A stretch of 64,000 bases of DNA from an uncultured Candidatus Saccharibacteria bacterium (GCA_964453265.1 CAYVNU010000002.1:40619-104618); one strand, 5' to 3'. Counted from the first letter of the stretch, positions 2,134 through 24,520 are shown. Made by a program: numbers and translations. The notes: generated by a model not told the origin, from the letters alone.

Positions 2134-2159
2134 AACTATAACTTAATCTATTTAAACAA

Positions 2160-3249: not shown

Positions 3250-3287
3250 TTAGATATGTTAGCATATTTTATGAAATGTTTTAAAAT

Positions 3288-3318: not shown

Positions 3319-3319
3319 A

Positions 3320-3646: not shown

Positions 3647-3681
3647 AATTGTTTTAAATTTATTTACACATTATTCCAAGT

Positions 3682-3873
3682 TTACTTGTTTTTAAAAGTT
3701 TTATTTAACCAAAACAATACAAGTAAGAATATAATTAATACCAATGCGCGTATTGGATGTAATTTAAGTTCAGACCAAAGCATGGAAATTATTAAACTTA
3801 AAAAGCTCCAAAAAAACTGCCAGGCATTAATTACTACATTTTTGATTAATTCCCAAAAATTTATTTTCGGCAT
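3682..3873 (-). CDS. Hypothetical small membrane protein (63 aa, two TM segments)
   Basis: Hydrophobic segments. An antisense ORF overlaps it. Confidence 0.4.
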   Translation of the reverse strand: MPKINFWELIKNVVINAWQFFWSFLSLIISMLWSELKLHPIRALVLIIFLLVLFWLNKTFKNK

Positions 3874-3957
3874 ATTAAATCTTCATCTTTAATCCTTTAT
3901 TCATATAAGTTAGTTAACTTTAAACTAACGGGTCATGTCCCCATTTTTCATTTTAAA

Positions 3958-4731
3958 TTATAAAAAAAATACTTCGATGAAGACAAACATTACCAGAGAA
4001 GAAATAATAATTGAAGATAAGGACCAGCGCAGTAACCATGGTTTCATTGGTTGATGACTCAGTTCGGTTTTAATTAGCTCGTATATGGTTTTAAGACCGT
4101 CACTATTTTTACTATCTGAAATTAATACAATATGCCTATATTTTCTATAACTATAGATTTGATTTGCTAAGCCTTTGAGTTTTGGATCTAATCTGGAAAC
4201 CTCTCTTTCAAAATCTTCAAAACTAACTTTATCGTCACTAGCTTTATTTTCAAGCGACTTTTGAATTAGCATACTATCCACTGGGTTTGAGTCTAATATT
4301 TTATTTTCTGAGGCAACTATCTCATTATACTGTTCTATTTTCTGATGTAAAATAGAAATTTTTTTTATGAGTTTATCGGAAATTAAGCTGATTCCTCCTA
4401 TACCGCCACGCATTCTTTTTGTAAGTTCTTTCGTTGCATCGCTAGGCACGGGCTTCCACTGATAAATTGGTAAATAAGACTTTTTATCATGGAAGCCTTG
4501 TTCTGAGTACTCACCTTCAACCCATTCTGCTATTTCATCCCGTAAATTCTTAAGCAAACTTAAGATGGAGTCAAATTCTTTCTTCACTGGATATTGGTAA
4601 GCCAAAAAAGCAAGAATTATTGCCGAGTAGGTCAGCACGTCGCCACTTTTAATGGGTATTGCCACCAATAGGTCTCTTAGCAGCTTTAATAGATGACCTA
4701 AGTAATTAATAATGAAATTAATGTGAGACAT
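3958..4731 (-). CDS. Hypothetical membrane protein (TM at both ends, coiled-coil middle)
   Basis: 257-aa ORF with N- and C-terminal hydrophobic helices. Confidence 0.55.
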   Translation of the reverse strand: MSHINFIINYLGHLLKLLRDLLVAIPIKSGDVLTYSAIILAFLAYQYPVKKEFDSILSLLKNLRDEIAEWVEGEYSEQGFHDKKSYLPIYQWKPVPSDATKELTKRMRGGIGGISLISDKLIKKISILHQKIEQYNEIVASENKILDSNPVDSMLIQKSLENKASDDKVSFEDFEREVSRLDPKLKGLANQIYSYRKYRHIVLISDSKNSDGLKTIYELIKTELSHQPMKPWLLRWSLSSIIISSLVMFVFIEVFFL

Positions 4732-4795
4732 ACTATTTCTTTAATACCGCCAAAAACGCTTCTTGCCCGTTCGACAGACTCAGGGCAGTCGGCTT

Positions 4796-6622
4796 TTACT
4801 TCTTAAGAACAGCTAGGAAAGCTTCTTGGGGGATTTCGACGCGGCCGATTTGCTTCATACGTTTTTTACCCTTTTTTTGCTTGTTTAGGAGCTTCATTTT
4901 TCTAGTTACGTCACCGCCGTATAGGTAGCCGGTTACGTCTTTACGTAGGGCTGAAATAGTTTCGCGGGCTATTATTTTGCCGCCAATGGCTGCTTGAATT
5001 GCTATTTCAAATTGGTGTTTTGGAATTAACTGCTTTAATTTATCTACTAATTCTTTACCATCGTTAGCTGCGGTAGACCTATGCATTATGGCAGAAAGCG
5101 CAGCAACGGGTTCGCCGGCTACTAAAACGTCTACTTTAACCAAGTCCCCAATTCTTTCTTCTATAAATTCATAATTAAGAGATGCATAACCGGAAGAGAC
5201 TGATTTTAGTTTATCGTAAAAGTCTATAATAATATTGGAAAGTGGCATTTCAAAAGACATGTCTACACGACTAGAGCCAATGTATTTTATGTCTTTGCTT
5301 ACAGCGCGACGCTGGTTGGCAATTTCCATTATAGGACCTATATATTCACTGGGGGTTAAAATATTTACAGTCATCCACGGTTCCCAAATATTTTTTATAA
5401 CGCTGGGGTCGGGCATTTCGGCGGGGTTATGAATATAAAATTCTTTAGCATCGGTTTTTTCTATACGGTACGCAACACTTGGCGCAGTTAAAATTAAATC
5501 AAGATTGTATTCACGGGTCAAACGCTCCTGCACAATATCCATATGAAGAAGACCTAAAAATCCCGTGCGGAAACCAAAGCCAATAGAAGGGATGTTTATA
5601 GGTTCGAATTCTAAAGCCGCATCGGAAAGTTTTAATTTACCCATACCTTCTCTTAAAACCGGGTAATCGTCGCCGGAGACCGGAAAAATTGTCGCGTAAA
5701 CCATGGGCTTTACATGTTTATATCCTGGTAAAGCCTTTGCCTGCGATTTATCTTCAATCAAAGTTATTGTGTCACCTACTCTGGCCTTACTAACATCACG
5801 AAGCCCCGTAACAATATACCCCACTTCACCAACCAAAATTTTATCAGAACGTTCCATTTTTGGTTTAAAGTAGCCTATTTCCAATGTCTCACTTTCTGTA
5901 TCACTACCAATCATATAAATTTTTTTCCTTGGAAAAAGTTCGCCGTCAAAAACGCGAACGTAAGCTACTACGCCGCGGTGAATGTCGTATATAGAGTCAA
6001 AAATCAAAGCTGTAACCGGCTTTTTAGGGTCGCCTTTAGGAGCCGGCACTCTTTTTATAACTTCTTTTATAATATTTTCTACGCCTTCACCGGTTTTACC
6101 GCTAGCATACAAAATTTCTTCGTCTGTAAAACCAAAAGCTGATTTTAATTCTTCGGCAGTTTTTTTACGGTCAGAGTTTGGCAAATCTATTTTATTTACT
6201 ACTGGGATAATGGTTAAGTCATGTTCCAAAGCCAAATAAACATTTGCCAAAGTTTGCGCCTCAATACCCTGTGTGCTGTCTACGACTAAAATAGCGCCTT
6301 CACAACAAGCGAGTGAGCGTGATACTTCGTAAGTGAAGTCTACGTGGCCCGGGGTATCAATAAGGTTTAATATATAAGATTTATGATTTAAAATTTCAGG
6401 CACATCACCTAAATTATCATCCAGTTCATAATCCATGCGAACCGGTTGTAATTTGATGGTAATACCTCTTTCGCGTTCTAAATCCATTTGATCCAACAGC
6501 TGGGCTTTCATTTCTCGCATTTGCACAGTTTTAGTAATTTCCAAAAGCCTGTCCGCGAGAGTGCTTTTCCCGTGATCTATATGAGCTATTATACAAAAGT
6601 TACGAATATTTTCTTGAGACAT
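4796..6622 (-). CDS. lepA: Elongation factor 4 (LepA)
   Basis: G1 motif AHIDHGKST, G3 motif DTPGHVDF, G4 motif NKID, and full-length similarity to EF4. Confidence 0.95.
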   Translation of the reverse strand: MSQENIRNFCIIAHIDHGKSTLADRLLEITKTVQMREMKAQLLDQMDLERERGITIKLQPVRMDYELDDNLGDVPEILNHKSYILNLIDTPGHVDFTYEVSRSLACCEGAILVVDSTQGIEAQTLANVYLALEHDLTIIPVVNKIDLPNSDRKKTAEELKSAFGFTDEEILYASGKTGEGVENIIKEVIKRVPAPKGDPKKPVTALIFDSIYDIHRGVVAYVRVFDGELFPRKKIYMIGSDTESETLEIGYFKPKMERSDKILVGEVGYIVTGLRDVSKARVGDTITLIEDKSQAKALPGYKHVKPMVYATIFPVSGDDYPVLREGMGKLKLSDAALEFEPINIPSIGFGFRTGFLGLLHMDIVQERLTREYNLDLILTAPSVAYRIEKTDAKEFYIHNPAEMPDPSVIKNIWEPWMTVNILTPSEYIGPIMEIANQRRAVSKDIKYIGSSRVDMSFEMPLSNIIIDFYDKLKSVSSGYASLNYEFIEERIGDLVKVDVLVAGEPVAALSAIMHRSTAANDGKELVDKLKQLIPKHQFEIAIQAAIGGKIIARETISALRKDVTGYLYGGDVTRKMKLLNKQKKGKKRMKQIGRVEIPQEAFLAVLKK

Positions 6623-6692
6623 TTAATTTAGAAAACTTAGACAAATATTTTATGATATTTAGCAATTTATTTAGACTAACAAATAACCATTC

Positions 6693-6732
6693 TCTCCTCC
6701 GTCATTGCGAGTATAGCCAAAACAATCTATAT
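6693..6732. repeat. Dispersed GC-rich repeat, copy R2 (ctcctccgtcattgcgag...caatctatat)
   Basis: Shares cgtcattgcgag and caatctatat with R5, and ctcctcc(g/t)tc with R4. Confidence 0.45.
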
Positions 6733-6819
6733 TTTTCCCGAATCTCCAAGCCCTTAGCTGAATTTTAATAATCTCCTCACATTAGTTCGTTTAGAAGCTA
6801 TATTCTACCAAAACTAAAG

Positions 6820-8433
6820 CTATTTGTCATATATTAAGCCCAAGGTTTTTTTAAGAAATTTTAAAACACTTTCCGCATTTTTGAGCTTTAATATTATGGC
6901 AAAAATGAAAAATCCCGCAAAGCCAAACAGACTGGCAGTACTAAATTGAATTAAAATACCTATACCAGTTTTAGTATTTAAAAATGGAGCAGATAGATAT
7001 AGAAAAATGTAACCTAAAAGACCACCAACTATACTTGAAAGCAATAGTTTTGCCAAAAAATCTGACAAATTTTTGTCAAAAACCCAATCAGACTTATTTG
7101 GTGAATAATCTTGTAACATGCTTTGTCTCAATAAAACAAACAAAATTCCTGCGTTTAGTATACTTGCAATTACAAAAGCTACGGCAATTCCAATGACTCC
7201 CAATTTAGGCGCCAGATACCATGCAAAAAAAATATTAAGAGCCATACAAATTAAACCAATAATAACCGGTGTTTTAGTATTTTGTCGTGCATAAAACGCT
7301 CTGGACAAAAGAGGTAAAATTGATTGACTAAATAAACCAAAACAAAAAACACCTAAAGTCTGAAAAGTTAAAATGGTATCTTCCCAATTAAAATTGCCGG
7401 CGCCATAGACAAGTCTAACAATATAAGCCCTAAAAATTAAAATAAAAATTGAAATAGGAATTACAAAAAATAAAATTTGCATAAGACTGTTGTAAAAATT
7501 TTCAGCATACTCTCTAAAATTATTTTTCGCATAACTTTCAGACATGCTGGGGAAAATTGCCATGGCAGTTGAAACACCAAAAATCCCTGTTGGTACTGCC
7601 TGTAAATTGTTAGCCAAATTTAAAATCGCAATAGAACCAGAGTTCAAATATGAGCCCACAATCGACCCTATTAACAAACTTAGTTGTGAAGTATCTACGC
7701 CAAATATTCTTGGGAAAAAAAGTTTTCCAATTTTTTTAACTGCGGGATCTCGCAAATCTAACTCAAAAGAAAATTTATAGCCTGTCGCCGCGTTTTCAAT
7801 AATTTGCGCAAATAAATGTAAAAAAGCGCCGAGTATTACTCCAAAACCTAAACCGTTTAAACCGTATTTGGGAAATAAAACTAAAATTCCAAAAACAATT
7901 CCTCCATTATAGAGAATTGGAGCAAGACTGGAAACTAAAAATCTTTTTTTCGCGTTGAGCATGCTGCCAAAAAAATTCGATAAAGTAAAAATTATTGGCG
8001 AAAGCAAAAATATTTTAGTAAGACTAATAGTGTCTGTTAATTTCTGACCGTTAAATCCCGGAACCATTAACTTAGTAAGCCAATGTGCGTTAAAATAGAG
8101 CGCAATACAAATTACAGACATCGACAAAAACGAAAAGCTTAAAATTGTATTAGCAATTTTATCCGCTCTGTTTTTATCTTTATTTAGCCACTCTGTAAAA
8201 ACGGGGATAAAAGCTGCTGAAAGAGTGCCTAGAATAAGTAAATTAAAAATAAAGTCCGGAAGTCTAAAAGCAGCATAATAGCTGTCTAACGTATCACCTG
8301 CGCCAAAGCGGCTGGCCAATAGCCTGTCTCTTAACAAACCCACAAACCTAGAAACTAACGCGAAAAAACCGACTATAAAGGCGGCTTTAGTTAGAGAAAA
8401 ATTAGATTCCCAGTTTCTTATTTTATTTATCAT
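6820..8433 (-). CDS. murJ: Lipid II flippase MurJ (MviN)
   Basis: The N-terminus RFVGLLRDRLLASRFGAGDTLDSYYAAFRLPD is typical of MurJ. The protein is 537 aa and polytopic. Confidence 0.9.
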   Translation of the reverse strand: MINKIRNWESNFSLTKAAFIVGFFALVSRFVGLLRDRLLASRFGAGDTLDSYYAAFRLPDFIFNLLILGTLSAAFIPVFTEWLNKDKNRADKIANTILSFSFLSMSVICIALYFNAHWLTKLMVPGFNGQKLTDTISLTKIFLLSPIIFTLSNFFGSMLNAKKRFLVSSLAPILYNGGIVFGILVLFPKYGLNGLGFGVILGAFLHLFAQIIENAATGYKFSFELDLRDPAVKKIGKLFFPRIFGVDTSQLSLLIGSIVGSYLNSGSIAILNLANNLQAVPTGIFGVSTAMAIFPSMSESYAKNNFREYAENFYNSLMQILFFVIPISIFILIFRAYIVRLVYGAGNFNWEDTILTFQTLGVFCFGLFSQSILPLLSRAFYARQNTKTPVIIGLICMALNIFFAWYLAPKLGVIGIAVAFVIASILNAGILFVLLRQSMLQDYSPNKSDWVFDKNLSDFLAKLLLSSIVGGLLGYIFLYLSAPFLNTKTGIGILIQFSTASLFGFAGFFIFAIILKLKNAESVLKFLKKTLGLIYDK

Positions 8434-10613
8434 CTTTTGTAAATTACAGCCCCAAACAACTGATCTTTGTCTAATAGTATATCAACAGAGTCTGCGTTTG
8501 TCTGCAGGTTGCTAAAACTGAAGTTTTGCCATACCAAAGATCTGCCTGGAAAAGAAAGTGTCCAATTAAAATTTTGAACTTTTGTACCTGGTTGTTTTTG
8601 AAGCATTAATACATATCTGTCTATTTCGGAGTCTGAAAAATTATAAGGCAAAATATACTTTAACTTAACAACTTTCGTCTCCCCACCTTGAACATTTAGC
8701 CAGTTGCCAAAAAAAGTTTTTCCCGCTTCTTGGCCAATAAGCGTTCCGCTTATAACATCTTTAACTGAATTTTTTTCCCACTCATAAACATCTGGGTCAG
8801 TTTTGTATTCATACTTTTTTTGATTTTCTAAAACTTTATTGTCAAAACCGGAATTAAAAACTAGTCTACTACCCAACGGTACTAAAATACGAATAAAACT
8901 TGAATTAAAAGTATTATAACTTTTAGGCATGCTATTGCTTCGAGAGATTTCTAATTCTTCAATTATTTGCCCGTCTTTTTGTATACTTGTATTTAGTTTT
9001 ACTTTTTGATCTATATATAAATCAGTCTTTGTTCCGCCTAGGTTCGAGGTTGAAATTTGTAAATAATCGCGATCCGATGACAAAACTTTTCCGGCCCAAT
9101 TAAAGTCTTCAAATGTTTTTTGAATACTCGGGATTCTGGAGTAGGCTAATATATTTTTAGAATTTAAATTTCTTTGCAAAGCTTCAAATACTGTTAACCA
9201 GTTTTCTGGTGATAAATTTTCTAGTTTTTGAAAAATAAGCGGTATGCAATCCGCTAAAACTTGTTTTGGTTGACCTGGGGTTATTGCTCCATATCCAACT
9301 GAGGAAGCAAGCTGTATTTGCTCAAAAAAATTATCAGAATCTAAAATTAAGTTATACTTTGGCAGCTCAATTGGCCCGGTAATTTTTAACAAATCTTGCA
9401 CAAAGTCAGGAGTTAAAGCAACTATTACATCGGGGGTTTCACCACCTTCTTTTTCATAAAAACCACTCATTAACTTAGCGGATTGAGGGAAATTTACAAA
9501 CCAATTACTATCTCTTAAAAACCATTGAGAATTAACATTTAATATTGGAGTAGGCGGAGAAATTTTTTCAGAAAGTTGTCCGTCCAAATCATATATACTG
9601 CTAACGTGGAGAGTATCTATTTTTCCGTTTTTCAAAATTAAGCTCCCAAATGTCCCCAAAAATCCGCCCGAAGTTCTAAGTTCATTGTTATTTTGAAAAA
9701 TCAATAAAATATTTTTTCTATCGGCATGTAACGCGTATAAAATCTTAAACATTTTTTCAAAACTTTCAAACGTTTGTTTTACAGCATGCAATTTTGTTTG
9801 TGCCGAAAAGAATTGTTCGGCATAGCTCTTAGGTAAATTATTTGGGTTAACTTCATTTGAAATTTCAACTGCTTGATTTATATTTTGACTAATGTTATTT
9901 ACGGAAGCATTCAAATTTTCCCAGGTTCTTTGATCCAAACCCTCTATGCCTAAGCTACTAAATTTTAAATTTTTTAAAGTATCATAAAAGCTAACAAACT
10001 CTTTACCACTTGTTGAAATTAAAGAAGCTATCTGGAGTAAGTTCCCAGCATCATGGGTTTGTGGTAATAAGTTAGTAACTTTTGAAAAGTCGGTAGCAGC
10101 TTGTTTTAATTTCTCTTGCCCGTTTTGAAAACTTTTATATGCCATGAGAAAGCTATTATTTGCGCTTTCAAAATCCTGATTTTGAATGGAGTTCTTAGCC
10201 GACTCTAAATACTTGGCTCCTTGTATTGATGTTTGAATTATCTCATCTTTTTTTTCTAGACCTACTGCAATAAATTTACCAGAAAATATTACAAAAATAC
10301 TGAAAATGGAAAATATTGCAAAGATTAAAAGGGTGTAAGCGCTTGAGGTTTTCAAAAAAGTTTTATACCGAATAGAAAAATAATAAAGTGTTTTTTTCCA
10401 CTCATTAGAGAAACTTTTGGAAAAATTCAAATATATAACATAGCAAAGTTTTTTAATTTTAAGGCATAAACCATAAACGAACTTACTAAAAGCTAGAAAG
10501 AATTTTAATACAAACAAACCAATATAATAAAAAAATAGAAAAACCCTGCTGGTTTTTGAAGCAGTTAATTTAATGGACTGATATTTGTGAATATGGAGTT
10601 TGAATTTTGCCAT
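8430..10613 (-). CDS. Large membrane-anchored protein, probably a DUF4012-family envelope protein
   Basis: N-terminal TM helices, a TSGGFLGTFG motif and a 727-aa extracytoplasmic body. Sits within the mur/fts cluster. The family assignment is from memory. Confidence 0.5.
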   Translation of the reverse strand: MAKFKLHIHKYQSIKLTASKTSRVFLFFYYIGLFVLKFFLAFSKFVYGLCLKIKKLCYVIYLNFSKSFSNEWKKTLYYFSIRYKTFLKTSSAYTLLIFAIFSIFSIFVIFSGKFIAVGLEKKDEIIQTSIQGAKYLESAKNSIQNQDFESANNSFLMAYKSFQNGQEKLKQAATDFSKVTNLLPQTHDAGNLLQIASLISTSGKEFVSFYDTLKNLKFSSLGIEGLDQRTWENLNASVNNISQNINQAVEISNEVNPNNLPKSYAEQFFSAQTKLHAVKQTFESFEKMFKILYALHADRKNILLIFQNNNELRTSGGFLGTFGSLILKNGKIDTLHVSSIYDLDGQLSEKISPPTPILNVNSQWFLRDSNWFVNFPQSAKLMSGFYEKEGGETPDVIVALTPDFVQDLLKITGPIELPKYNLILDSDNFFEQIQLASSVGYGAITPGQPKQVLADCIPLIFQKLENLSPENWLTVFEALQRNLNSKNILAYSRIPSIQKTFEDFNWAGKVLSSDRDYLQISTSNLGGTKTDLYIDQKVKLNTSIQKDGQIIEELEISRSNSMPKSYNTFNSSFIRILVPLGSRLVFNSGFDNKVLENQKKYEYKTDPDVYEWEKNSVKDVISGTLIGQEAGKTFFGNWLNVQGGETKVVKLKYILPYNFSDSEIDRYVLMLQKQPGTKVQNFNWTLSFPGRSLVWQNFSFSNLQTNADSVDILLDKDQLFGAVIYKR

Positions 10614-16854: not shown

Positions 16855-17175
16855 ATGTCCTCAATCAAAATTGACGAAGTAAATTTTAAAACTGAAGTAT
16901 TAGATGAAACTTTACCTGTTTTAGTCGATTTTTGGGCTGTTTGGTGCGGACCCTGTAAAATAATTGGCCCAATAATAGAAGAACTTTCTTCTGAATACGC
17001 TGGAAAAATGAAATTTGGCAAAGTAAATGTAGACGAAAATAACTCACTTGCTTCCCAATTTGGCGTTATGAGCATACCAACCCTTAAAATCTTTAAAAAT
17101 GGCAAAGTTGTCGGCGAAATGATCGGAGCAGCACCTAAACAGGTTTTAGAAGACGAAATTAAGAAGCATATTTAA
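16855..17175 (+). CDS. trxA: Thioredoxin
   Basis: The WCGPC active site (WAVWCGPCK) and a length of 106 aa. Confidence 0.9.
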   Translation: MSSIKIDEVNFKTEVLDETLPVLVDFWAVWCGPCKIIGPIIEELSSEYAGKMKFGKVNVDENNSLASQFGVMSIPTLKIFKNGKVVGEMIGAAPKQVLEDEIKKHI

Positions 17176-17252
17176 TTAAATACTTGGATCAATCGAGAAA
17201 GTTTAAAACTTTTGAGACTGGTAACTAAATTGGTTGGTGTTAAAGTACAATT

Positions 17253-17280
17253 AAGCCTTGAATAAAGGCTTTTTTGTTTG
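17253..17280 (+). terminator. Rho-independent terminator of trxA
   Basis: aagccttgaataaaggctt followed by tttttg. Confidence 0.6.
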
Positions 17281-17339
17281 TTTTTCATTAACCAATTTCG
17301 TGTATGAAATCAGTATGTAAATATTGAAATAAGAACCAT

Positions 17340-17692
17340 CCAGATCCGCCAAAGTCCCGACTGGTCGGGACGACGGTGGAAGAGTCGCTGGCGCTCTGAG
17401 TGGCTAAACTGATTAATTACCAACCTAAAAGGTTACCAGTCGCAAACTTTTTTACCAATATACTCTAATAACCTCCTCCCCGGGTTCCGATAACTCCACC
17501 CGGGGTTTCCAACACGGCGCCCGCGATGATTATCAATCGCTAAGAGCTTACCTGCTGGCGGGCGTAACTTGCTTTCCAAAACGGGGATGGTTTTGGAAAG
17601 AACAGAGCCGTTCATCCCCGGACGGCGGTGAAGATCTGTTTTAAGCTTATGGCTTCAATGCTGGCCGCCTGTCCGGGGTTTTCTGGCAGACT
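17340..17692 (+). ncRNA. GC-rich structured region and candidate ncRNA; class unresolved (tmRNA, SRP RNA and 6S-like RNA not excluded)
   Basis: A roughly 350-nt island of about 50% GC sits in an AT-rich genome. It contains nested hairpins: gtcccgac/gtcgggac, ccccgggt/acccgggg, ctttccaaaac/gttttggaaag and cggggatg/catccccg. A strong terminator hairpin follows. The only ORF in the region is a spurious antisense one. Confidence 0.3.
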
Positions 17693-17728
17693 AAAAAGAG
17701 CCTGTAATTACAGGCTCTTTTGTATTTT
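17693..17728. terminator. Bidirectional terminator hairpin
   Basis: aaaaa-gagcctgtaattacaggctc-ttttgtatttt. Confidence 0.55.
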
Positions 17729-17773
17729 ATTAGCAACCAATTTATGCACCAGTCACCAGTCTCGTACATTTTC

Positions 17774-19555
17774 TCAAACGATTTTATGAACCTGACCTGG
17801 CTTTATTACTGTTTTAGTGTTTACAGGATTTATGATTTTATTTATATTGTCAGCATCGTGGATATCTGCATTTTTTTGGTTTCCAATACTTTTATTAAGA
17901 TCTCCTAACTGACGCTGTTTTTTTTCTCTTTCTAAATTAGCTATTGTATTCCAGATTGGATTTTCTTTTTTTCCTTCAGTTTTTTTTGTATTATTTTTTT
18001 TCTCAGAAAATTTAGGATTTTGATGAATTTTTGTTTTAAAATCTTTTTTTGATTTAACAACTTCTTCGTGGGGCTTACTCGAAAAAGTTTGTGTTATAGG
18101 TTTTACAGCTATTTCCCGACTGCTTGTATCAGGAGTTTTTACCAAAGGTTTTTCAGGCAAGGCTGTAATTTGTTCTATGTTATTCAAATTTAAATCAGTA
18201 TTTTCATTTTCCAAATCCTCAGAGCTATCTTTTAAAATAGCTGTCTCCTCATGAAATTCCGCACCCATCCAACGAGAAATTTTTTCTTCTACATCTAAAA
18301 CAGGGTTAGTATACCTCTCTCTGGAAACTTTTATAACTTTGTCAAAATTACCGGAATAATATTCGGGGTTTGGAGATAAGGTAATGGCAGAAAACGGTTC
18401 ACTAGCAACGCCATTTATCATTAATTTTAAAATAATTTGATATTTAGGCAGGTTTACCATGTCGTTTGGCGTAAAAATCGGTTCAAATTCAGTTTCTAAA
18501 AACTCCGCGTCAGCAGCACCAATCCTAAACAACACAATTGTTCCCACGTTTCCAAAAATAGCGTCTCTAACTTTTGTACTACGATCTTGTTCTAACTGAG
18601 CAATGTACTGATGCCCGACAATCAAATTTAAGCGGTATTTTCTGGCTTCACTTAAAATTGTCGCGAAACTTTCAGTGGCAAAATTTTGAAATTCATCAAC
18701 GTACAAATAAAAATCTTTTCTTTCGTGCTCAGGAATGTCTGTTCTTGACATGGCTGCAAGTTGAAGTTTTGTTACCACCATTGCCCCCAAAAGGGCGCTG
18801 TTGTCTTCGCCTACTTTACCTTTAGACAAATCCATAATTAAGATTTTGCGCTTATCCATTATTTCGCGCAAATCTATTGTGCTTTTCGGCTGGCCAACAA
18901 TATTTCTAATAATGCCGCTAGATAAAAATTGTCCTACTTTATTTTGAATAGGGGCAATAGCTTCTGTTCTATACTTCTCATTATAATTAGCAAATTCATC
19001 GACCCAGAAAGCCTTAACCATAGGGTCTTTAATATTATCAACAATTTTCTTTCTATACTTTTTATCAACATACATTCTGGTAATACCTAAAAGAGTATTG
19101 CCAGGGCTATCTAGCAAAGCCAAAATTGTATTATTTAAAATATATTCCATTCTCGCTGACCATAAGTTTGCCCAAATTTTAGTAAATACACCCATAAGCC
19201 CGCTAGCTACCAAATGTTTATATTTAGCGTCAACAGCCTCTAAAATATTAAATGCTACGGGAAATTCCAAATCAGCTGGGTTAAAATATATTACGTCATT
19301 AACACGGTTAGATGGGATGGAATTTAATATTCTTTGAACTGAGTCTCCGTGCGGGTCTAAAAACGCCACACCATTGCCGTTACGGATATCCTGAATGACC
19401 ATATTTTCCATTAATGTGGTTTTACCCATTCCCGTTTTACCAATTAAGTACATGTGCCTTCTTCGATCATCGGTTTTAATACCAAAAGCCACATCTTTAT
19501 TTCGGAAGTTGGTTTTAGCAAAAACAGTAATTTTGTTTTCTTGATTATTTTCCAT
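17774..19555 (-). CDS. AAA-like ATPase of the TraD/VirD4 coupling-protein (AAA_10/TraG-D_C) family
   Basis: N-terminal Walker A (LIGKTGMGKTT) followed by FLDPHGD, a Walker B (LYVDEFQNF), and a Lys/Asn-rich tail of about 130 aa. Confidence 0.65.
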   Translation of the reverse strand: MENNQENKITVFAKTNFRNKDVAFGIKTDDRRRHMYLIGKTGMGKTTLMENMVIQDIRNGNGVAFLDPHGDSVQRILNSIPSNRVNDVIYFNPADLEFPVAFNILEAVDAKYKHLVASGLMGVFTKIWANLWSARMEYILNNTILALLDSPGNTLLGITRMYVDKKYRKKIVDNIKDPMVKAFWVDEFANYNEKYRTEAIAPIQNKVGQFLSSGIIRNIVGQPKSTIDLREIMDKRKILIMDLSKGKVGEDNSALLGAMVVTKLQLAAMSRTDIPEHERKDFYLYVDEFQNFATESFATILSEARKYRLNLIVGHQYIAQLEQDRSTKVRDAIFGNVGTIVLFRIGAADAEFLETEFEPIFTPNDMVNLPKYQIILKLMINGVASEPFSAITLSPNPEYYSGNFDKVIKVSRERYTNPVLDVEEKISRWMGAEFHEETAILKDSSEDLENENTDLNLNNIEQITALPEKPLVKTPDTSSREIAVKPITQTFSSKPHEEVVKSKKDFKTKIHQNPKFSEKKNNTKKTEGKKENPIWNTIANLEREKKQRQLGDLNKSIGNQKNADIHDADNINKIINPVNTKTVIKPGQVHKIV

Positions 19556-19559
19556 AAAT

Positions 19560-20897
19560 TTAATATTCTGCTATTGGTAAATTAGGAGGGGCTTGCGACC
19601 TGCGACTATTAGTTTTCTCTATTGCTGTAGGTACTGTTGTAGTCTTAGTTGTTATTGGGAAATGATACAAAGTCGCAATCTCTTCAACATTTAATACATA
19701 CATAGGTGAGCCGATATGAATCTCCCTATTTTTAAACCCTTTGAGTATATACTTTTTTTTCTTATTTAGAATTTTTTGCAAATAAAGTTGTTCTAAAGTT
19801 TTAGAAAATTTATACTCTGCACTAGTCCAAGTATTGCCGTCGGGCTTTAATTTATTTGTCATACTAGAACCAAGAGGTCTGTATGAGCCAATTATTAAAC
19901 TTTTTTTATTTGCATCAAATTTATCTTTATGAGCAATGTATAAAAAACGGATTTTGGTTTTGTAGCCGGGTTTACTAATCTTCCTTTCAATGAGACTAAC
20001 GCGATCTTTCTCAGCTTCCGTCATACTCATCCAATTATTTTTGGGTTTATTTTCTTCAGCTCCGTGATCATGACCGTGACCTCCACCCAATATTGAATTT
20101 TTTAAATCAAATTGAGAAAATTTAGAAACCGGAGCCATTAAAGCACCGCTATACGAAACCTCGTGAGCACGCTCTTCGCCGATCAAATCTTTAATTTTAT
20201 CCTCCCCTTTTGGCTTCCATTCTTCGTCTGCCAGAGGCTGAATAATAATTTGTGTTGCAAAAAGTTCGTGTGGATTCATTTTTCCCATACCTTCAAAAAA
20301 GTTTGAAAGCGGATCAATAACCGTTTCTTCTGCTGCAGGATGTTCAAAATCTTTATACGTTTTTAAAGGTATAACTTCCGATTCAACTAACTTCCATTCA
20401 GTTCCCCAAATTTCAAAATCGCCCGGATTTTCTGGATCAAAAGAAAAATTCTCCAAGTAATCATTGCATTCTGTAATTTCAGCCTGTTGATACTGCGAAT
20501 AAAAAGCAGCTTCTACTAACTCTTTTGTCTTTTTTGGCACCCTTAGTATAAATGAAACTTTACCACCCAAACTAACAATTTCCAAACTATACCAAAGCTG
20601 AATTTGTCCTTCTACATATTTATCAGGAAAAGTTTTGGCTGAATGCAAAGCATGCATTTGTGTAAAAATACTCTCCACTGCTAAAGTACTGACTAAGTTT
20701 TCTTTCGGAACTTTAATGCTTAAAAAAATCCATTCCTGACTGTGCACGAACTGATGTTGAATTTCATGCAAATAGGTTTTCCAAAGCAAATAAATAGCAG
20801 CCAAAGCAAAAATTACCCAGCCGCCATTTATAAAAAAGATTCCGAAAATTTTAAATATTTCCAAAAACTGCGGGGTTATATTAGAAAATATTTGCAT
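19560..20897 (-). CDS. Hypothetical membrane protein, operonic with the TraD/VirD4-like ATPase
   Basis: N-terminal TM pair and a 445-aa body. Only 5 nt separate it from the ATPase gene. Confidence 0.6.
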   Translation of the reverse strand: MQIFSNITPQFLEIFKIFGIFFINGGWVIFALAAIYLLWKTYLHEIQHQFVHSQEWIFLSIKVPKENLVSTLAVESIFTQMHALHSAKTFPDKYVEGQIQLWYSLEIVSLGGKVSFILRVPKKTKELVEAAFYSQYQQAEITECNDYLENFSFDPENPGDFEIWGTEWKLVESEVIPLKTYKDFEHPAAEETVIDPLSNFFEGMGKMNPHELFATQIIIQPLADEEWKPKGEDKIKDLIGEERAHEVSYSGALMAPVSKFSQFDLKNSILGGGHGHDHGAEENKPKNNWMSMTEAEKDRVSLIERKISKPGYKTKIRFLYIAHKDKFDANKKSLIIGSYRPLGSSMTNKLKPDGNTWTSAEYKFSKTLEQLYLQKILNKKKKYILKGFKNREIHIGSPMYVLNVEEIATLYHFPITTKTTTVPTAIEKTNSRRSQAPPNLPIAEY

Positions 20898-20918
20898 TTT
20901 GTTTTAGTTTAAATAACT

Positions 20919-22058
20919 TTAGGCTGCGATTTCGTAAAGATTTTTTCCAACTTTTTTGAATTGTTTTTTGTCTGATAGACCGACTAAAATTGTATTTTTC
21001 TTTACTACACGTCTTTTTAAAACTTCTTCTACAATTTTCTCTTTTGGAAGTGGTTGTTTTAATTCTAATAGGATTTCACGGATAACATCCGATACAACGC
21101 CAGACTTATAACCCCATTCTGACAACGCGTAAATTCCCCTTCCAATTAAAATAAAGCGCCTGTCTTTTATTAATTCGTTGTGCACTGTTTCTTTATAAGC
21201 TGTTCTTGAATCAAAACCAGCTTTATTTATCATTTCTGTAATTACCGAGTAATGCTCAGGCTTTTTATGGAACTTCATAACCAAATAAGCTTTATCACCT
21301 ACATCTTTTGGCTTAATTTCCTTCCAAAAATTCATTCCCCAAAGCCCAAAAACATTCTTTTCTATTTCTATCGCTAGATCCAAAAAATTGAGTATGATTT
21401 TATCATTTAAATCCTGTTGATTTGCAATATAAAACTCAGTTTTTTTAAAATTTTCTAAAAATTCATGGGCAGCCATAGGAACACTAGAGGTAATAAAAAT
21501 TTGTTTGGTATGCTCAGTAAATTTATGTACCACATCATCCTTAAACAAGGTATGTACCCAAGATTTTTTGTAGTTTTGATGAATAAAATTTTCTATCTCA
21601 TCTATTAAACTTAGCAAAAAAACTACTGCGTTTTTTTCTGTTTCAGTTTTTAAATTTAAGTAAAGAAATAAATTTTCTTCAGCTATAATTTTTCCGTGTT
21701 CTAAAATAACATTTATTAAAAATTCTTTTGTTTGCAAAAATGCTTTATTGCTTGAAGAAGTTTTTCTAAGCTGCTTAATAATGTCTTTTTCAATTTGCCT
21801 AACTCTCTCCCTAGTTAAACCCTGTTCCTGACCAATAGAAGCTAGGGTTTTTGCCTGGTTACCAAGCAAACCGTAGCGATGAATAAGGATTTTTTTATCT
21901 CTTTCCTTCAGCATTGCCAAAATTTCCTCAACCACCCTATTTGGTTCAAAGGTGTTTAAAGATTCTTGCTGCTTTGTTGTAATTATTGTGTCTAAAATTC
22001 CCATTTCAGTAAAATAAATTATCGGATTTAGTATAGCATAAACTTGTTTACTTGTCAA
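20919..22058 (-). CDS. Sigma-70 region-4 (HTH) domain protein with a long C-terminal domain of unknown function
   Basis: Residues about 45-100 (DKKILIHRYGL...LTRERVRQIEKDIIKQLRK) match sigma-70 regions 4.1/4.2. No region 2 is present. Uses a TTG start. Confidence 0.6.
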   Translation of the reverse strand: MTSKQVYAILNPIIYFTEMGILDTIITTKQQESLNTFEPNRVVEEILAMLKERDKKILIHRYGLLGNQAKTLASIGQEQGLTRERVRQIEKDIIKQLRKTSSSNKAFLQTKEFLINVILEHGKIIAEENLFLYLNLKTETEKNAVVFLLSLIDEIENFIHQNYKKSWVHTLFKDDVVHKFTEHTKQIFITSSVPMAAHEFLENFKKTEFYIANQQDLNDKIILNFLDLAIEIEKNVFGLWGMNFWKEIKPKDVGDKAYLVMKFHKKPEHYSVITEMINKAGFDSRTAYKETVHNELIKDRRFILIGRGIYALSEWGYKSGVVSDVIREILLELKQPLPKEKIVEEVLKRRVVKKNTILVGLSDKKQFKKVGKNLYEIAA

Positions 22059-22074: not shown

Positions 22075-22102
22075 AAAAACCCTCTTAAATAAGAGGGTTT
22101 TT
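22075..22102 (-). terminator. Terminator hairpin downstream of secF
   Basis: aaaaaccctcttaaataagagggttttt. Confidence 0.5.
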
Positions 22103-22118: not shown

Positions 22119-23006
22119 TTATTTCGTTTTCCACTTTTGCCAAACAACTAGTACCGGACTTGCTATAAAAATTGAGGAATAGGTTCCGACAATAACACCA
22201 ACAAACAAGGCCAAAACGAAATATCTAATTGTCTCACCCCCGAATAATAAAAGCGATAATAACACAAACAGCACTGTTAAGCTCGTGTTTAATGAACGGA
22301 CTATAGTTTGTGCAATACTATGATTAACAACATAATCTATAGACTGTCCTGGATAAATTTTTAAATTTTCTCGAATTCTGTCAAACACAACAATTGTGTC
22401 ATGTACCGAAAAACCAAGCACGGTTAACATGGCAGTAACGAACAAACTGTCTACTTCAACACCCTTATAATGCCCTAATATTGAGAATAAACCTAAAACA
22501 AACAACAAGTCGTGAAGCAAAGCAATAATAGCAGACCAGCCAAATCTCCAAGAAGTTACGGGCTTAGCTACTTTTCTAAAAGCATAACCAATATAAGCAA
22601 CAATACCAAACGAAACTAAAAGTAACTGATAAATAGCATTCTTTTTTAATTCTTTGCCAATAATTGGGCCAATAGAATCTAATTTTGTCTCACTAAACTC
22701 CCCTGCTGACTTAGAAATATTTAAAAGCATCTGGTCATGTCTTTCTTTTTCCAGACTTTCAGTCTTTATAATCAATTGATTGTTTTCGGCTGATTGAAGC
22801 TGAAAATTACCAATACCGCTCTTTGTCACGGCTTCCTGAACTTTATTTAATTCAAAAGCATTTTTAAACTGAATTTCTGTTAATGTCCCGCCTTTAAAAT
22901 CAATACCCAGCTTCAAACCATAAAAAGACAGGGAAAAAATTCCAAAAATTAAAATTAAAGCTGAAATTGTAAACCAAAACTTGTAATATTTTAAGGTATT
23001 AAACAT
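22119..23006 (-). CDS. secF: Protein translocase subunit SecF
   Basis: 295-aa six-TM protein with the SecD/SecF signature, placed immediately after secD. Confidence 0.9.
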   Translation of the reverse strand: MFNTLKYYKFWFTISALILIFGIFSLSFYGLKLGIDFKGGTLTEIQFKNAFELNKVQEAVTKSGIGNFQLQSAENNQLIIKTESLEKERHDQMLLNISKSAGEFSETKLDSIGPIIGKELKKNAIYQLLLVSFGIVAYIGYAFRKVAKPVTSWRFGWSAIIALLHDLLFVLGLFSILGHYKGVEVDSLFVTAMLTVLGFSVHDTIVVFDRIRENLKIYPGQSIDYVVNHSIAQTIVRSLNTSLTVLFVLLSLLLFGGETIRYFVLALFVGVIVGTYSSIFIASPVLVVWQKWKTK

Positions 23007-23038
23007 AAAGTTTAGAATTTTATAAGGTTGAAGTTAAT

Positions 23039-24520
23039 TTAATTATTATTGCTTTTCTTTTTAGAGACTCCAAATAACCACGGGTGGCTTAAAATGTTGT
23101 TACCGACAAAAAGTTTTAAAAATGTTCTGGTAACAGAAATAGCAGTAAACATTGAAATTAAAATACCAATCCCTAGTGTGACTGCAAACCCCTTGATTGA
23201 CGGAGTGCCAAAAATATAAAGTATGGCGGTTGTAATTAAGCTAGACATATTTGAATCTCTTATAGACAGCCAGGCTCTAGCAAAACCATCATCCACTGCT
23301 TTATGAATTTCTTTTCCAACCCTAATTTCTTCTTTAACTCTTTCAAAGATTAAAATATTCGCGTCAACAGCCATACCAATAGATAAAATAAAACCGGCAA
23401 TACCAGCCAAAGTTAAAGTCACCGGCGACAAGCCATTTAATAGCATTAAAATAATGTAACTTATTAAAGCAGCTGCGCCAAACCATGCATTTACAGTTAA
23501 TCCTAAGAAAAAGAAAGCTCCCACCAAAACCAAAGCTGTAAATGATAAACCTATTTTGAAAACGGCAAAAGAAACCAAAGCGTATATTATTAAAGCCAAA
23601 ACTGCCAATAAACCAGGGAAACGGTAATACATAATCATAAATAATGCTATAAGCAATACACCAATTAAACCCGCTACCACAGACTTATGAACAGATTCCT
23701 TACCCAAAGTCGCGCCAACATTTTGTTGGGAAATTAATTTAATTGGCACTGGTAGTGCACCGCTATTAAGTCTGGTAGCTAAATCTTTAGCCTGCTGGGT
23801 AGTAAAGTTACCTGTTATTATTGCTACTCCGTCGGTAATAGCATTTTGAACAGTGGGTGTGCTAATTGGCTGGCCGTCTAAAATAATTGCTACAGGCTTG
23901 CCGACATTAGCAGAAGTTATTTCCCCGAATAATTTTTTTCCTTCATTGTTAAATTCCAAACGAACTACAACTTGATTATCCAAACTCCTGCCTTGCTGAA
24001 AATCCACCGAAGCTCTGGAAAGCTGTTTACCGGAAAGACCGGTAGACTGCCATTGACCTAATGGATCTAAAGTAATCTGTCCGTTTGTGTCGGGTTTAAC
24101 CTCCGTCGGTTTTGGATTTACGACCATAAATTCCAGATACGGGGTTTGGCCGATTTGCTTAATGGCTTCGTTTACATCTTTGATACCAGGAAGCTCAACA
24201 ATAATTCTATCTGTGCCTGCAACCTGAACTAACGGCTCAGAAACACCAAAGCTGTTTACTCTTCTTTCTATAGTGTCCCTGATTGAATTTAAAGCATCAG
24301 CTCTGTCTTCCGGCTTTATGTCTTTAAAATCTGCTTGGTAAACCAAGTGGCTACCGCCCTGCAAATCTAAACCTAAATGCACCTTAAATTCTTGTTTATA
24401 AGGAATTTTAATTTTATTTAAATCTATTTTACTGCCCTTTGGATGATCTATATACAGAGCAGCTGCGGCCATTAAAACTATAAAAAATAACGAGCTAAAG
24501 AGTTTAAATTTTGGATGCAT
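23039..24520 (-). CDS. secD: Protein translocase subunit SecD
   Basis: 493 aa with a periplasmic domain and a C-terminal six-TM block containing GLDLQGG. Confidence 0.9.
   Translation of the reverse strand: MHPKFKLFSSLFFIVLMAAAALYIDHPKGSKIDLNKIKIPYKQEFKVHLGLDLQGGSHLVYQADFKDIKPEDRADALNSIRDTIERRVNSFGVSEPLVQVAGTDRIIVELPGIKDVNEAIKQIGQTPYLEFMVVNPKPTEVKPDTNGQITLDPLGQWQSTGLSGKQLSRASVDFQQGRSLDNQVVVRLEFNNEGKKLFGEITSANVGKPVAIILDGQPISTPTVQNAITDGVAIITGNFTTQQAKDLATRLNSGALPVPIKLISQQNVGATLGKESVHKSVVAGLIGVLLIALFMIMYYRFPGLLAVLALIIYALVSFAVFKIGLSFTALVLVGAFFFLGLTVNAWFGAAALISYIILMLLNGLSPVTLTLAGIAGFILSIGMAVDANILIFERVKEEIRVGKEIHKAVDDGFARAWLSIRDSNMSSLITTAILYIFGTPSIKGFAVTLGIGILISMFTAISVTRTFLKLFVGNNILSHPWLFGVSKKKSNNN

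What the first reader, a model, noticed from the sequence alone, without database searches (positions are those of the whole stretch)
17774..22058. Putative operon: a protein with only sigma-70 region 4, a membrane protein, and a TraD/VirD4-like AAA ATPase
Three co-directional genes with gaps of 5 and 22 nt. The first has only the region 4.1/4.2 helix-turn-helix of a sigma factor plus a 280-aa domain of unknown function. The second is a 445-aa membrane protein. The third is a coupling-protein-like ATPase with an N-terminal Walker A followed by DPHGD, and a low-complexity Lys/Asn tail. Together this looks like a minimal DNA or protein translocation module, with a transcription-factor-like component and no other T4SS parts. 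I recall such ATPase-membrane pairs being reported in candidate-phyla genomes, but the function remains unproven. The sigma-r4 fusion protein is the least understood part.
Basis: partly seen in the sequence, partly recalled or inferred. Interest (0 to 1): 0.55.

Follow-up and report, generated by a model that had tools for sequence, protein, structure and literature searches.

The report
Patescibacterial split coupling-ATPase operon with sigma-like partner
This is a real three-gene operon, conserved across the ultra-small Patescibacteria, that pairs a probably essential sigma-factor-like DNA-binding protein with a membrane-anchored motor ATPase split into two genes; its function is still unknown, but it can now be tested.

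Summary

B and C behave as one split protein. They are fused in Saccharibacteria-like contigs (hhalign E 1e-51) and in Bacillus phage proteins. In 80 species-level genomes, C follows B in 62 of 75 loci and A precedes B in 51 of 75. Starting from A, B follows in 12 of 14.

The window holds only housekeeping genes, with no relaxase or other type IV secretion parts. Published Tn-seq in Southlakia calls the A-type gene essential and the adjacent fused B-C-type gene dispensable, and a canonical FtsK is present.

My best reading is a membrane-tethered DNA motor with a sigma-like DNA-binding partner. The anatomy is shown; the substrate and A's role are inferred. I rate it a new variant of a known kind.

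The parts
22080..22097 (-). Hairpin CCCTCTT-ATTT-AAGAGGG followed by TTTTT, just after the secF stop codon (22119-22121). Terminator-like, it separates secDF from the trio.
   Evidence: Read directly from the sequence. The pattern scanner did not list it.
22030..22058 (-). Sigma-70-type promoter: -35 TTGACA (22058-22053), 17-nt spacer, extended -10 TGcTATACT (TG 22038-22037, TATACT 22035-22030).
   Evidence: 11 of 12 consensus matches with TG. Sequence. The same TTGACA-17-TGnTAnanT is present upstream of the A gene in L001, L003, L058 and L006, and shifted in L021.
20919..22004 (-). Gene A, 361 aa: sigma-70 region 4, a helical region, a HARE-HTH winged helix and a C-terminal winged helix. No sigma regions 1-3 and no enzyme domain.
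21762..21920 (-). Sigma region 4 of A (aa 29-81). The 4.2 recognition helix LTRERVRQIEK is aa 63-73 (21786-21818).
   Evidence: R65, E66, R67, R69, Q70 and E72 are invariant across 35 family members.
21114..21293 (-). HARE-HTH winged helix of A (aa 238-297).
   Evidence: Pfam PF05066. Conserved block DKAYLVLK...TVHNELIKD.RFVLVGRGIYAL.
20928..21098 (-). C-terminal winged helix of A (aa 303-359).
   Evidence: Secondary structure H-H-H-E-E in the AF2 model. Conserved in most relatives. Missing in L059, L063 and L080.
19560..20897 (-). Gene B, 445 aa, Pfam DUF8128. An N-out/C-in single-pass anchor plus a cytoplasmic domain with the fold of the VirB4 N-terminal domain.
20781..20849 (-). The single transmembrane segment of B (aa 17-39, IFGIFFINGGWVIFALAAIYLLW).
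   Evidence: Hydropathy. Positive-inside analysis of 35 family members: 0.57 K+R before the segment and 2.7 after it.
19656..19697 (-). Most conserved motif of B (aa 401-414, VLNVEEIATLYHFP). In fused homologues it lies at the junction with the ATPase.
   Evidence: Invariant E405, A408, H412 and P414. Its position in the fused proteins is shown.
17774..19555 (-). Gene C, 593 aa: a soluble coupling-protein-type (VirD4/TrwB) P-loop ATPase. Conserved core aa 1-430 (18266-19555), then a variable Lys/Asn/Glu-rich tail aa 431-593 (17777-18265).
   Evidence: Pfam TrwB_AAD_bind 53.7, DUF87 35.8 and TraG-D_C 33.9 bits. Profile against PDB: DotL 6e-9, TrwB 9e-9. No hydrophobic segment. Tail length in relatives is 83-356 aa, median net charge +5.
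19418..19441 (-). Walker A GKTGMGKT (aa 39-46) of C.
   Evidence: Invariant G39, G42, G44 and K45.
18692..18709 (-). Walker B YLYVDE (aa 283-288) of C.
   Evidence: E288 is invariant and D287 nearly invariant.
17694..17721 (-). Palindromic 12-bp-stem hairpin (AAAAGAGCCTGT-AATT-ACAGGCTCTTTT) with a T run, 53 nt after the stop codon of C. Terminator-like end of the operon; the next gene (thioredoxin) converges on it.
   Evidence: Thioredoxin at 16855-17175 on the plus strand.

Best explanation
The locus is an operon with its own promoter and terminator, conserved across Patescibacteria. It encodes two things.

1. Genes B and C together make one membrane-anchored motor protein written as two genes. 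B puts a short N-terminus outside the cell and crosses the membrane once. Its cytoplasmic domain has the fold of the VirB4 N-terminal domain. C is a coupling-protein-type (VirD4/TrwB clade) P-loop ATPase with intact Walker motifs and no membrane segment of its own. B docks C at the inner face of the membrane. There C would form a ring, as its relatives do, and use ATP to move a polymer, most likely DNA. The pair has no channel, relaxase or pilus genes beside it. It is therefore not a conjugation system or a complete secretion system.

2. Gene A is a sigma-region-4 plus multi-winged-helix protein. It keeps the residues that, from general knowledge of primary sigma factors, contact the -35 promoter box. 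I propose that it binds promoter-like DNA (or RNA polymerase), and that it is functionally coupled to the motor as a DNA-recognition or regulatory partner. It must also have a role of its own.

Shown here: gene anatomy, domain and fold assignments, the B-C fusions, and conservation of A-B-C. Inferred: B-C contact in the split form, ring formation, DNA as the substrate, and what A does.
For: Operon anatomy: a terminator-like hairpin after secF, a conserved extended -10 promoter, gaps of 21 and 4 nt, and a terminal hairpin.

B-C as one protein:
- The B profile aligns end to end (aa 22-445) with residues 12-374 of a 923-aa ORF in L098, whose residues 404-716 are the TrwB-type ATPase (hhalign probability 100%, E 1.4e-51).
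- The same fusion occurs in L095 and, without the membrane segment, in Bacillus phage G gp156 (E 2.3e-15). It is weaker in SPO1 gp27.4.
- The fold of B matches VirB4/TrwK by two methods. No other P-loop ATPase appears in either hit list, so the match is to the VirB4-specific N-terminal domain.
- Charge distribution predicts that the soluble domain of B is cytoplasmic.

Identity of C: closest to the coupling proteins DotL, TrwB and TrsK over the whole nucleotide-binding domain. Walker motifs are invariant. The core is 55-79% identical across classes in which B is only about 30% identical.

Linkage: B to C in 62/75 loci, A to B in 51/75. Starting from A, B follows in 12/14. A-B persists without SecDF or C.

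DNA as substrate: all characterised relatives act on DNA, including CedD, a chromosomal VirD4-like ATPase needed for DNA import. The SPO1 homologue sits between genes annotated 'partition protein' and 'replication initiation by nicking'. A is built only of DNA-binding folds, and its LTRERVRQIE helix is invariant.
Against: - No experiment or complex model shows that B binds C, or that either binds A.
- In Southlakia Tn-seq the A-type gene is called essential while the adjacent fused B-C-type gene is not. A's main role therefore cannot be to serve the motor.
- A is missing next to B in about a third of loci, and C in about a sixth.
- TTGACA shows no strand polarity in the window (10 versus 16), so there is no FtsK/KOPS-like guidance by that motif.
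- Some coupling proteins move proteins rather than DNA.
- Orthology of the Southlakia genes rests on synteny and matching domain coordinates, not on their sequences.
Confidence: 0.5

Rival explanations
1. B-C is the missing coupling ATPase of the patescibacterial type IV secretion system (VirB4, VirB6 and VirB2-like pilins encoded elsewhere in the genome). It feeds DNA or proteins into that machine, or receives incoming DNA from it as CedD does in Sulfolobus. A regulates it or binds the substrate.
For: - Coupling-protein genes are often encoded far from virB4.
- The Southlakia T4SS cluster lacks a recognisable coupling protein.
- CedD is a precedent: a chromosomal VirD4-like ATPase encoded apart from its system, and some of its orthologues lack a membrane segment.
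- C has the TraG-D_C domain.
Against: - VirD4-type homologues are in 2,918 of 3,035 Patescibacteria genomes, while VirB4 is in only 2,417.
- In Southlakia the T4SS genes are essential, but the fused B-C-type gene SEML1_0293 is not.
- No T4SS gene lies in the 64-kb window.
- The conserved neighbours are SecDF and cell-wall genes.
Confidence: 0.2
2. A and B-C are functionally separate. A is an essential RNA-polymerase-associated or global transcription factor: a mimic of sigma region 4 with a delta-subunit-like HARE-HTH. It merely shares, or autoregulates, an old operon with an unrelated membrane ATPase.
For: - The Southlakia A-type gene is essential and the B-C-type gene is not.
- Both domains of A come from RNA polymerase partners, sigma region 4 and the delta subunit.
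- A perfect TTGACA lies in the operon's own promoter.
- A is absent from about a third of B loci.
- In the UGA-recoded lineage, the A homologue is not next to B.
Against: - Starting from A, B is the next gene in 12 of 14 loci. These include divergent lineages with only 25-30% identity in B and the Saccharibacteria-like fused form.
- A-B adjacency survives loss of both SecDF and C.
- Linkage that persistent across a phylum usually reflects shared function.
Confidence: 0.2
3. B-C is a protein-handling motor that works with the Sec pathway, as suggested by its conserved position directly after secD-secF.
For: SecF lies within 3 kb upstream of B in 48 of 69 loci. SecA is also nearby in the window. 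Some coupling proteins translocate proteins (general knowledge).
Against: - A terminator-like hairpin and a conserved promoter separate secF from the trio.
- SecDF is absent next to A-B-C in many loci, including the Saccharibacteria-like ones.
- No Sec-related domain is found in A, B or C.
Confidence: 0.05
4. The ATPase is a housekeeping FtsK- or HerA-type DNA translocase for chromosome segregation.
For: It has a weak DUF87/HerA-central Pfam hit (35.8 bits). It sits in the core genome beside cell-division and cell-wall genes. The logic of membrane anchor, motor and winged helix resembles FtsK.
Against: - There is no FtsK_SpoIIIE hit, and the best matches are coupling proteins.
- Southlakia has a canonical FtsK with gamma domain and 4TM region (SEML1_0096), which becomes essential in the later Tn-seq calls (GD/ES/ES), alongside the dispensable B-C-type gene.
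- There is no TTGACA strand skew.
Confidence: 0.03
5. The pair is an anti-phage defence module related to MADS (mad8).
For: PADLOC mad8 hit, E 1.8e-16.
Against: - B has no PADLOC hit, and A matches only the sigma region 4 of MzaA (E 3e-8).
- No methylase or nuclease lies nearby.
- The locus is a single copy in fixed housekeeping synteny across hundreds of species, unlike defence islands.
Confidence: 0.02

Closest known systems
Type IV coupling proteins (VirD4, TrwB, TraD, DotL/IcmO)
   Same: C shares the P-loop nucleotide-binding domain with its helical insert and the TraG-D_C region. The best Pfam and PDB-profile matches are to this family.
   Different: C has no N-terminal membrane domain; B supplies the anchor in trans. 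No relaxase or mating-pair genes are nearby. It is a core chromosomal gene in housekeeping synteny. Scores fall far below every NCBIfam coupling-protein cutoff.
VirB4/TrwK, including the split TrsD-TrsE pair of plasmid pGO1
   Different: The ATPase half is closer to coupling proteins than to VirB4's C-terminal domain (4ag5 scores only E 0.046). B shows no sequence-level similarity to TrsD, TrsE or any PDB chain. There are no VirB3, VirB6 or VirB8 neighbours.
CedD/TedD of the archaeal Ced/Ted DNA-import systems
   Same: It is a chromosomal VirD4-like ATPase that is not part of a mobile element and is encoded apart from its partners. Some orthologues lack a membrane segment and are thought to be anchored by another protein.
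   Different: Only a weak NCBIfam hit over about 80 residues (22.9 bits against a cutoff of 600). It is archaeal. CedD works with CedA and CedB, for which no counterpart is seen here.
FtsK/SpoIIIE
   Same: The same superfamily and the same parts list: membrane anchor, ring motor and a winged-helix DNA reader.
   Different: A different clade with no FtsK_SpoIIIE or gamma-domain match. A canonical FtsK coexists with the module in Southlakia.
EccE with EccC of type VII (ESX) secretion
   Different: The match is weak and partial. No other ESX components are present, and the ATPase belongs to a different clade.
Sigma-70 region 4 and the RNA polymerase delta subunit (RpoE), as relatives of gene A
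   Same: Region 4 matches at 44 bits and keeps the LTRERVRQIE helix. The HARE-HTH is the fold of the delta subunit's N-terminal domain.
   Different: A has no sigma regions 1.2, 2 or 3, so it cannot be a sigma factor. It has no acidic delta-type tail and carries extra winged helices instead.
Bacillus phage G gp156, and SPO1 gp27.4 and CP-51 gp91 (PHROG 5156, function unknown)
   Same: Each is a single chain containing a DUF8128-like domain followed by the same ATPase type.
   Different: The phage G alignment starts after the position of the membrane segment in B, so the phage protein seems to lack the anchor. Identity to C is only 24-28%. They sit in phage replication and partition gene neighbourhoods.

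Membership tests
Type IV coupling protein (VirD4/TrwB/TraD) | P-loop nucleotide-binding domain of the FtsK-HerA superfamily with Walker A and B motifs | tested here: met
   GKTGMGKT and YLYVDE are conserved. Pfam TrwB_AAD_bind scores 53.7 bits against a cutoff of 20.5.
Type IV coupling protein (VirD4/TrwB/TraD) | N-terminal transmembrane domain in the same polypeptide | tested here: not met
   C has no hydrophobic segment. The only anchor is in B, or in the fused forms.
Type IV coupling protein (VirD4/TrwB/TraD) | Genetic association with a relaxase and/or mating-pair-formation genes | tested here: not met
   None among the ORFs scanned in the 64-kb window. The literature reports only 148 of 5,713 patescibacterial homologues near virB4.
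Type IV coupling protein (VirD4/TrwB/TraD) | Reaches a curated family score (NCBIfam TraD or VirD4 models) | tested here: not met
   Best scores are 47.3 bits against a cutoff of 366 (SXT_TraD) and 42.1 against 250 (CD1115).
VirB4 | VirB4-type N-terminal domain | tested here: met
VirB4 | N-terminal domain and ATPase in one chain, with a VirB4-type C-terminal domain | tested here: not met
   The two parts are split into B and C here. C is closer to coupling proteins than to VirB4 (4ag5 E 0.046, against DotL 6e-9). The TrsE alignment covers only the Walker B region.
VirB4 | Neighbouring VirB3, VirB6 or VirB8-type genes | tested here: not met
   Absent from the window.
Pfam DUF8128 (PF26449) | Match to the family model | tested here: met
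   Indirect. The local Pfam copy lacks this model. PF26449 is on record for homologues 51-91% identical over the full length and for the syntenic gene in L001.
Sigma-70 family sigma factor | Region 4 (recognition of the -35 box) | tested here: met
   Pfam Sigma70_r4 scores 44.3 bits against a cutoff of 24.1. PDB hits to RpoS and RpoD region 4.
Sigma-70 family sigma factor | Region 2 (core binding, recognition and melting of the -10 box) | tested here: not met
   No Sigma70_r2 or r3 hit. All NCBIfam sigma models match only their C-terminal ends, far below cutoff. A is not a sigma factor.
RNA polymerase delta subunit (RpoE) | N-terminal HARE-HTH followed by a long acidic tail | tested here: not met
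FtsK/SpoIIIE | FtsK_SpoIIIE motor domain and gamma winged helix | tested here: not met
   No Pfam or PDB-profile hit to FtsK. A canonical FtsK exists separately in Southlakia.
MADS defence system | mad8 together with the other mad genes, including the methyltransferase | tested here: not met
   Only C hits mad8 (E 1.8e-16). B has no PADLOC hit, and A matches only the sigma region of MzaA. The context is housekeeping.

The most novel reading that the evidence does not exclude
The A-B-C unit is a previously unrecognised housekeeping system found across Patescibacteria. Its motor keeps a VirB4-type N-terminal domain joined, or split but adjacent, to a VirD4-type ATPase. That would make it a third lineage, or an evolutionary intermediate, between the two ATPases of type IV secretion. 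It would work with a probably essential sigma-region-4/HARE-HTH protein to tether or move promoter-bearing DNA, or transcribing RNA polymerase, at the cell membrane, independently of any secretion system.
Probability: 0.2. Interest if true: 0.8.

Novelty: new variant of a known kind. Interest (0 to 1): 0.6.

Why it matters
Patescibacteria are a large share of uncultivated bacterial diversity. Their conserved genes of unknown function are the main obstacle to understanding them.

A 2025 survey reported that almost every patescibacterial genome carries 'orphan' coupling-protein homologues of unknown role. This analysis adds three things for one such homologue:
- A defined partner, DUF8128, which turns out to be a membrane anchor with a VirB4-like N-terminal domain.
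- Proof from natural fusions that the two are one functional protein.
- A persistently linked sigma-like DNA-binding protein whose Southlakia counterpart is already called essential in published Tn-seq data.

A vague 'hypothetical protein plus ATPase' pair becomes a concrete hypothesis that can be tested in a genetically tractable organism. It also bears on how the two ATPases of type IV secretion diverged.

I found no paper describing DUF8128 or the sigma-region-4/HARE-HTH combination.

Tried and rejected
Explanations rejected:
- **FtsK replacement or KOPS-like guidance.** There is no FtsK Pfam or PDB hit. A canonical FtsK exists in Southlakia. TTGACA is not strand-skewed (10 versus 16).
- **Mobile element or conjugation.** No relaxase, integrase or mating-pair genes are in the 64 kb, and the chromosomal synteny is fixed.
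- **Defence system.** Only a P-loop-level mad8 hit.
- **Co-transcription with secDF.** A terminator-like hairpin and a conserved promoter lie between them.
- **A as a true sigma factor.** It has no region 2 or 3.
- **B as a degenerate ATPase.** The fold hit lists contain no TrwB, FtsK or HerA chains, so the match is to VirB4's N-terminal domain.

Searches that found nothing:
- Sequence-level links of B to known proteins: PDB profile search, pGO1 TrsD and TrsE, tblastn against phage genomes, and IMG/VR scans with the protein and with the alignment.
- Literature searches for DUF8128 and for the sigma-4 plus HARE-HTH combination.
- tRNA and Rfam scans found no RNA gene in or next to the operon.

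- The afdb50 fold library was unavailable.
The model of A therefore rests on a shallow alignment (65-75% identity) and has low pTM (0.40).
- No multimer prediction was available.
- The metagenome scan with A returned mostly ordinary sigma factors. Only 18 of its 80 loci were full-length A homologues.

Full report
**1. The observation**

The window is low-GC (about 0.34), and nearly all its genes are on the minus strand. Three consecutive minus-strand ORFs occupy 17774-22058:
- A: 20919-22058 as listed.
- B: 19560-20897, 445 aa.
- C: 17774-19555, 593 aa.

The gaps are 21 nt and 4 nt.

A's true start is almost certainly the ATG at 22004, giving 361 aa:
- Nearly all of the 120 best homologues are 359-367 aa and cover 95% of the 379-aa ORF.
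- The N-terminus MGILD is conserved.
- The listed TTG at 22058 is the first base of a TTGACA -35 box. A 17-nt spacer and an extended -10 (TGcTATACT) follow it.
- The same promoter architecture precedes the A gene in five relatives.

Upstream, secF ends at 22119 and is followed by a hairpin plus T run (22080-22097). Downstream, a 12-bp palindromic hairpin with a T run (17694-17721) lies 53 nt after C's stop codon, and the next gene, thioredoxin, converges on it. The trio is therefore a self-contained transcription unit.

**2. What the three proteins are**

*Gene A.* It has sigma-70 region 4 (Pfam 44.3 bits) and a HARE-HTH (32.3 bits). It has no sigma regions 1-3.
- The 4.2 helix reads LTRERVRQIEK. 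R65, E66, R67, R69, Q70 and E72 are invariant across the family. From general knowledge of primary sigma factors, these positions contact the -35 box.
- The AF2 model (pLDDT 75.5, pTM 0.40) is a string of helical and winged-helix domains.

*Gene B.* It belongs to Pfam DUF8128 (PF26449), going by precomputed hits on close homologues. The family has about 1,560 clusters at 50% identity.
- B has a single hydrophobic segment at aa 17-39.
- Across 35 members, the N-terminal flank carries 0.57 Lys+Arg and the 15 residues after the segment carry 2.7. This predicts an N-out/C-in topology with a cytoplasmic soluble domain.
- The AF2 model is good (pLDDT 83, pTM 0.78).
- Foldseek independently ranks 13 TrwK chains first (E 5e-5 to 4e-3).
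- Neither list contains TrwB, FtsK or HerA chains, and B has no Walker motifs. The match must therefore be to VirB4's own N-terminal domain. This step is an inference.
- No sequence method detects the relationship.

*Gene C.* It matches TrwB_AAD_bind (53.7 bits), DUF87 (35.8) and TraG-D_C (33.9).
- A family profile hits DotL/IcmO (6e-9, over residues 16-328) and TrwB (9e-9). VirB4 scores only 0.046, and FtsK is not hit at all.
- C aligns with pGO1 TrsK (a VirD4 type) across the whole nucleotide-binding domain.
- The Walker A and B motifs are conserved.
- C has no membrane segment.
- The roughly 430-aa core is followed by a variable tail, which in relatives is 83-356 aa with a median net charge of +5.

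**3. B and C are one protein in two pieces**

- PHROG 5156 matches B over profile positions 78-300 and C over positions 393-813.
- Bacillus phage G gp156 (825 aa) aligns with the DUF8128 profile at residues 15-323 (hhalign 98.5%, E 2.3e-15). Its C-terminal half matches C.
- SPO1 gp27.4 and CP-51 gp91 are similar but weaker.
- The decisive case is in metagenomic contigs L098 and L095. There an A homologue is followed by a single ORF of 923 or 878 aa.
  - That ORF starts with a membrane segment.
  - It aligns with the whole of B (aa 22-445 against residues 12-374; probability 100%, E 1.4e-51).
  - It continues straight into the TrwB-type ATPase at residues 404-716.

The order of N-terminal domain then ATPase is that of VirB4. 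pGO1's TrsD-TrsE pair is a precedent for splitting off an N-terminal piece.

**4. Conservation and context**

A scan of one genome per species found at least 549 matches to B. The 80 best are all Patescibacteria of many classes. Among these loci:

| Relationship | Count |
|---|---|
| C directly follows B | 62 of 75 loci with room |
| A directly precedes B | 51 of 75 |
| SecF lies within 3 kb upstream | 48 of 69 |

Median identity to the window's proteins is 65% for C, 35% for A and 31% for B. A-B adjacency persists where SecDF or C is absent. Where C is missing, the downstream genes are unrelated.

I also searched starting from A. Twelve of 14 full-length A homologues with room downstream have B (or fused B-C) as the next gene. 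The two exceptions belong to a UGA-recoded lineage.

The rest of the window is housekeeping: LepA, MurJ, FtsW, Mur ligases, MraY, a penicillin-binding-type peptidase, SecA, SecD, SecF, RpoA and AlaRS. It contains no relaxase, integrase, VirB4, VirB6, pilus or competence genes.

**5. What the literature adds**

- Quinonero-Coronel et al. 2025 found 5,713 VirD4-type homologues in 2,918 of 3,035 Patescibacteria genomes. Only 148 are near virB4, and VirB4 itself is in 2,417 genomes. The authors suggested the homologues may have been exapted for another function.
- Wang et al. 2023 (Tables S1 and S2) list three relevant genes in Southlakia epibionticum:

| Gene | Features | Tn-seq call |
|---|---|---|
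| SEML1_0294 | 349 aa; Sigma70_r4 at 27-72, HARE-HTH at 225-283; one tri-helical and three winged domains | Essential at all three time points (24 insertions in the input DNA, 1-2 after selection) |
| SEML1_0293 (adjacent) | 921 aa; TrwB-type domain at 402-719 | Non-essential, but normalised reads fall 5817, 2940, 1372 |
| SEML1_0096 | Canonical FtsK | GD, then ES, ES (becomes essential) |

- L098 has the same gene order (A, fused B-C, GNAT) and the same domain coordinates as SEML1_0294, 0293 and 0292. I therefore treat these as the same module. This rests on synteny, not on the Southlakia sequences, which I could not read.
- CedD of Sulfolobus shows that a chromosomal VirD4-like ATPase, encoded apart from its partners, can serve DNA import.

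**6. Interpretation**

*Shown:*
- The operon anatomy.
- The domain and fold assignments.
- The B-C fusions.
- The phylum-wide A-B-C linkage.

*Inferred:*
- B docks C at the cytoplasmic face of the membrane, and C works as a ring motor.
- The substrate is DNA. All characterised relatives act on DNA, the SPO1 homologue sits among replication and partition genes, and A is made only of DNA-binding folds.
- A is a DNA- or RNA-polymerase-binding partner or regulator.

Because the Southlakia A-type gene is essential and the B-C-type gene is not, A must have a role beyond the motor.

*Rivals still open:*
- The motor may act in trans as the coupling ATPase of the patescibacterial T4SS.
- A and B-C may be functionally separate.

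The FtsK/HerA, defence and Sec-coupled readings are poorly supported.

**7. Verdict**

This is a real conserved module with a coupling-protein-like ATPase. It is not, however, a complete translocation machine, and the 'membrane protein' is really the detached N-terminal half of the motor.

I rate it a new variant of a known kind, with interest 0.6.

Noticed in passing
window 22119-24520 (secF 22119-23006, secD 23039-24520); loci L003-L082: secD-secF lies directly upstream of the module in 48 of 69 loci across many patescibacterial classes. A hairpin and a promoter nevertheless separate them in this window. This could be old synteny or a functional link with protein export.
   Followed up: partly
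Southlakia epibionticum SEML1_0142 (literature): A second coupling-protein-like paralogue (1019 aa, P-loop at 381-800, also with a roughly 380-aa N-terminal region of unknown nature) is essential in Tn-seq. Patescibacteria average about two such homologues per genome. Its relation to the B-C module was not examined.
   Followed up: no
L101 5034-6053 and L102 2163-3182: Divergent A homologues (about 29% identity) lie on contigs that have only one ORF of 120 aa or more under the standard bacterial code but read through under code 25 (UGA = Gly). Here A is not followed by B or C. A deaminase-like 179-aa ORF follows instead.
   Followed up: partly
window 55234-56874 and 57021-58190 (minus strand): Two large ORFs (546 and 389 aa) have no Pfam match at E <= 1e-5. 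They sit between the ribosomal/rpoA region and alaS.
   Followed up: no
window 8430-10613; also L059 12597-15146: A large DUF4012 protein (727 aa) sits inside the cell-wall gene cluster, between ftsW and murJ. Another DUF4012 protein lies two genes downstream of DUF8128 in L059.
   Followed up: no
window 17176-17773: An unusually long (about 600 nt) stretch lies between the converging thioredoxin gene and gene C. It holds a 60-aa ORF (17433-17615, minus strand) and a second hairpin at 17253-17271. No tRNA or Rfam family was found there.
   Followed up: partly
window 38029-38856 and 40350-41270: Two patatin-like phospholipase genes flank a Mur-ligase gene, in the same run as murG (41270-42358). 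This is an odd place for lipases.
   Followed up: no
window 49071-50456: A Schlafen/AlbA_2 plus HATPase_c_4 protein (461 aa) is the only gene in the window with a possible defence or regulatory flavour.
   Followed up: no
window 54600-54697 (minus strand): The only Rfam hit in the window is the Alpha_RBS element of the alpha ribosomal-protein operon (39.2 bits, gathering score 38). It is just above threshold.
   Followed up: no
window 20040-20126 (B aa 258-286): B contains a Gly/His-rich, low-confidence loop (GGGHGHDHGAEENKPKNN; pLDDT below 50). Most relatives do not conserve it. It might bind a metal or simply be disordered.
   Followed up: no
L085 (SPO1) 1774-9589; L166 (CP-51): In SPO1-like phages, the fused homologue gp27.4 lies between genes annotated 'partition protein' and 'replication initiation by nicking'. 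It is a few genes from the phage sigma factor gp28. A motor near a sigma factor recurs here, possibly by coincidence.
   Followed up: partly
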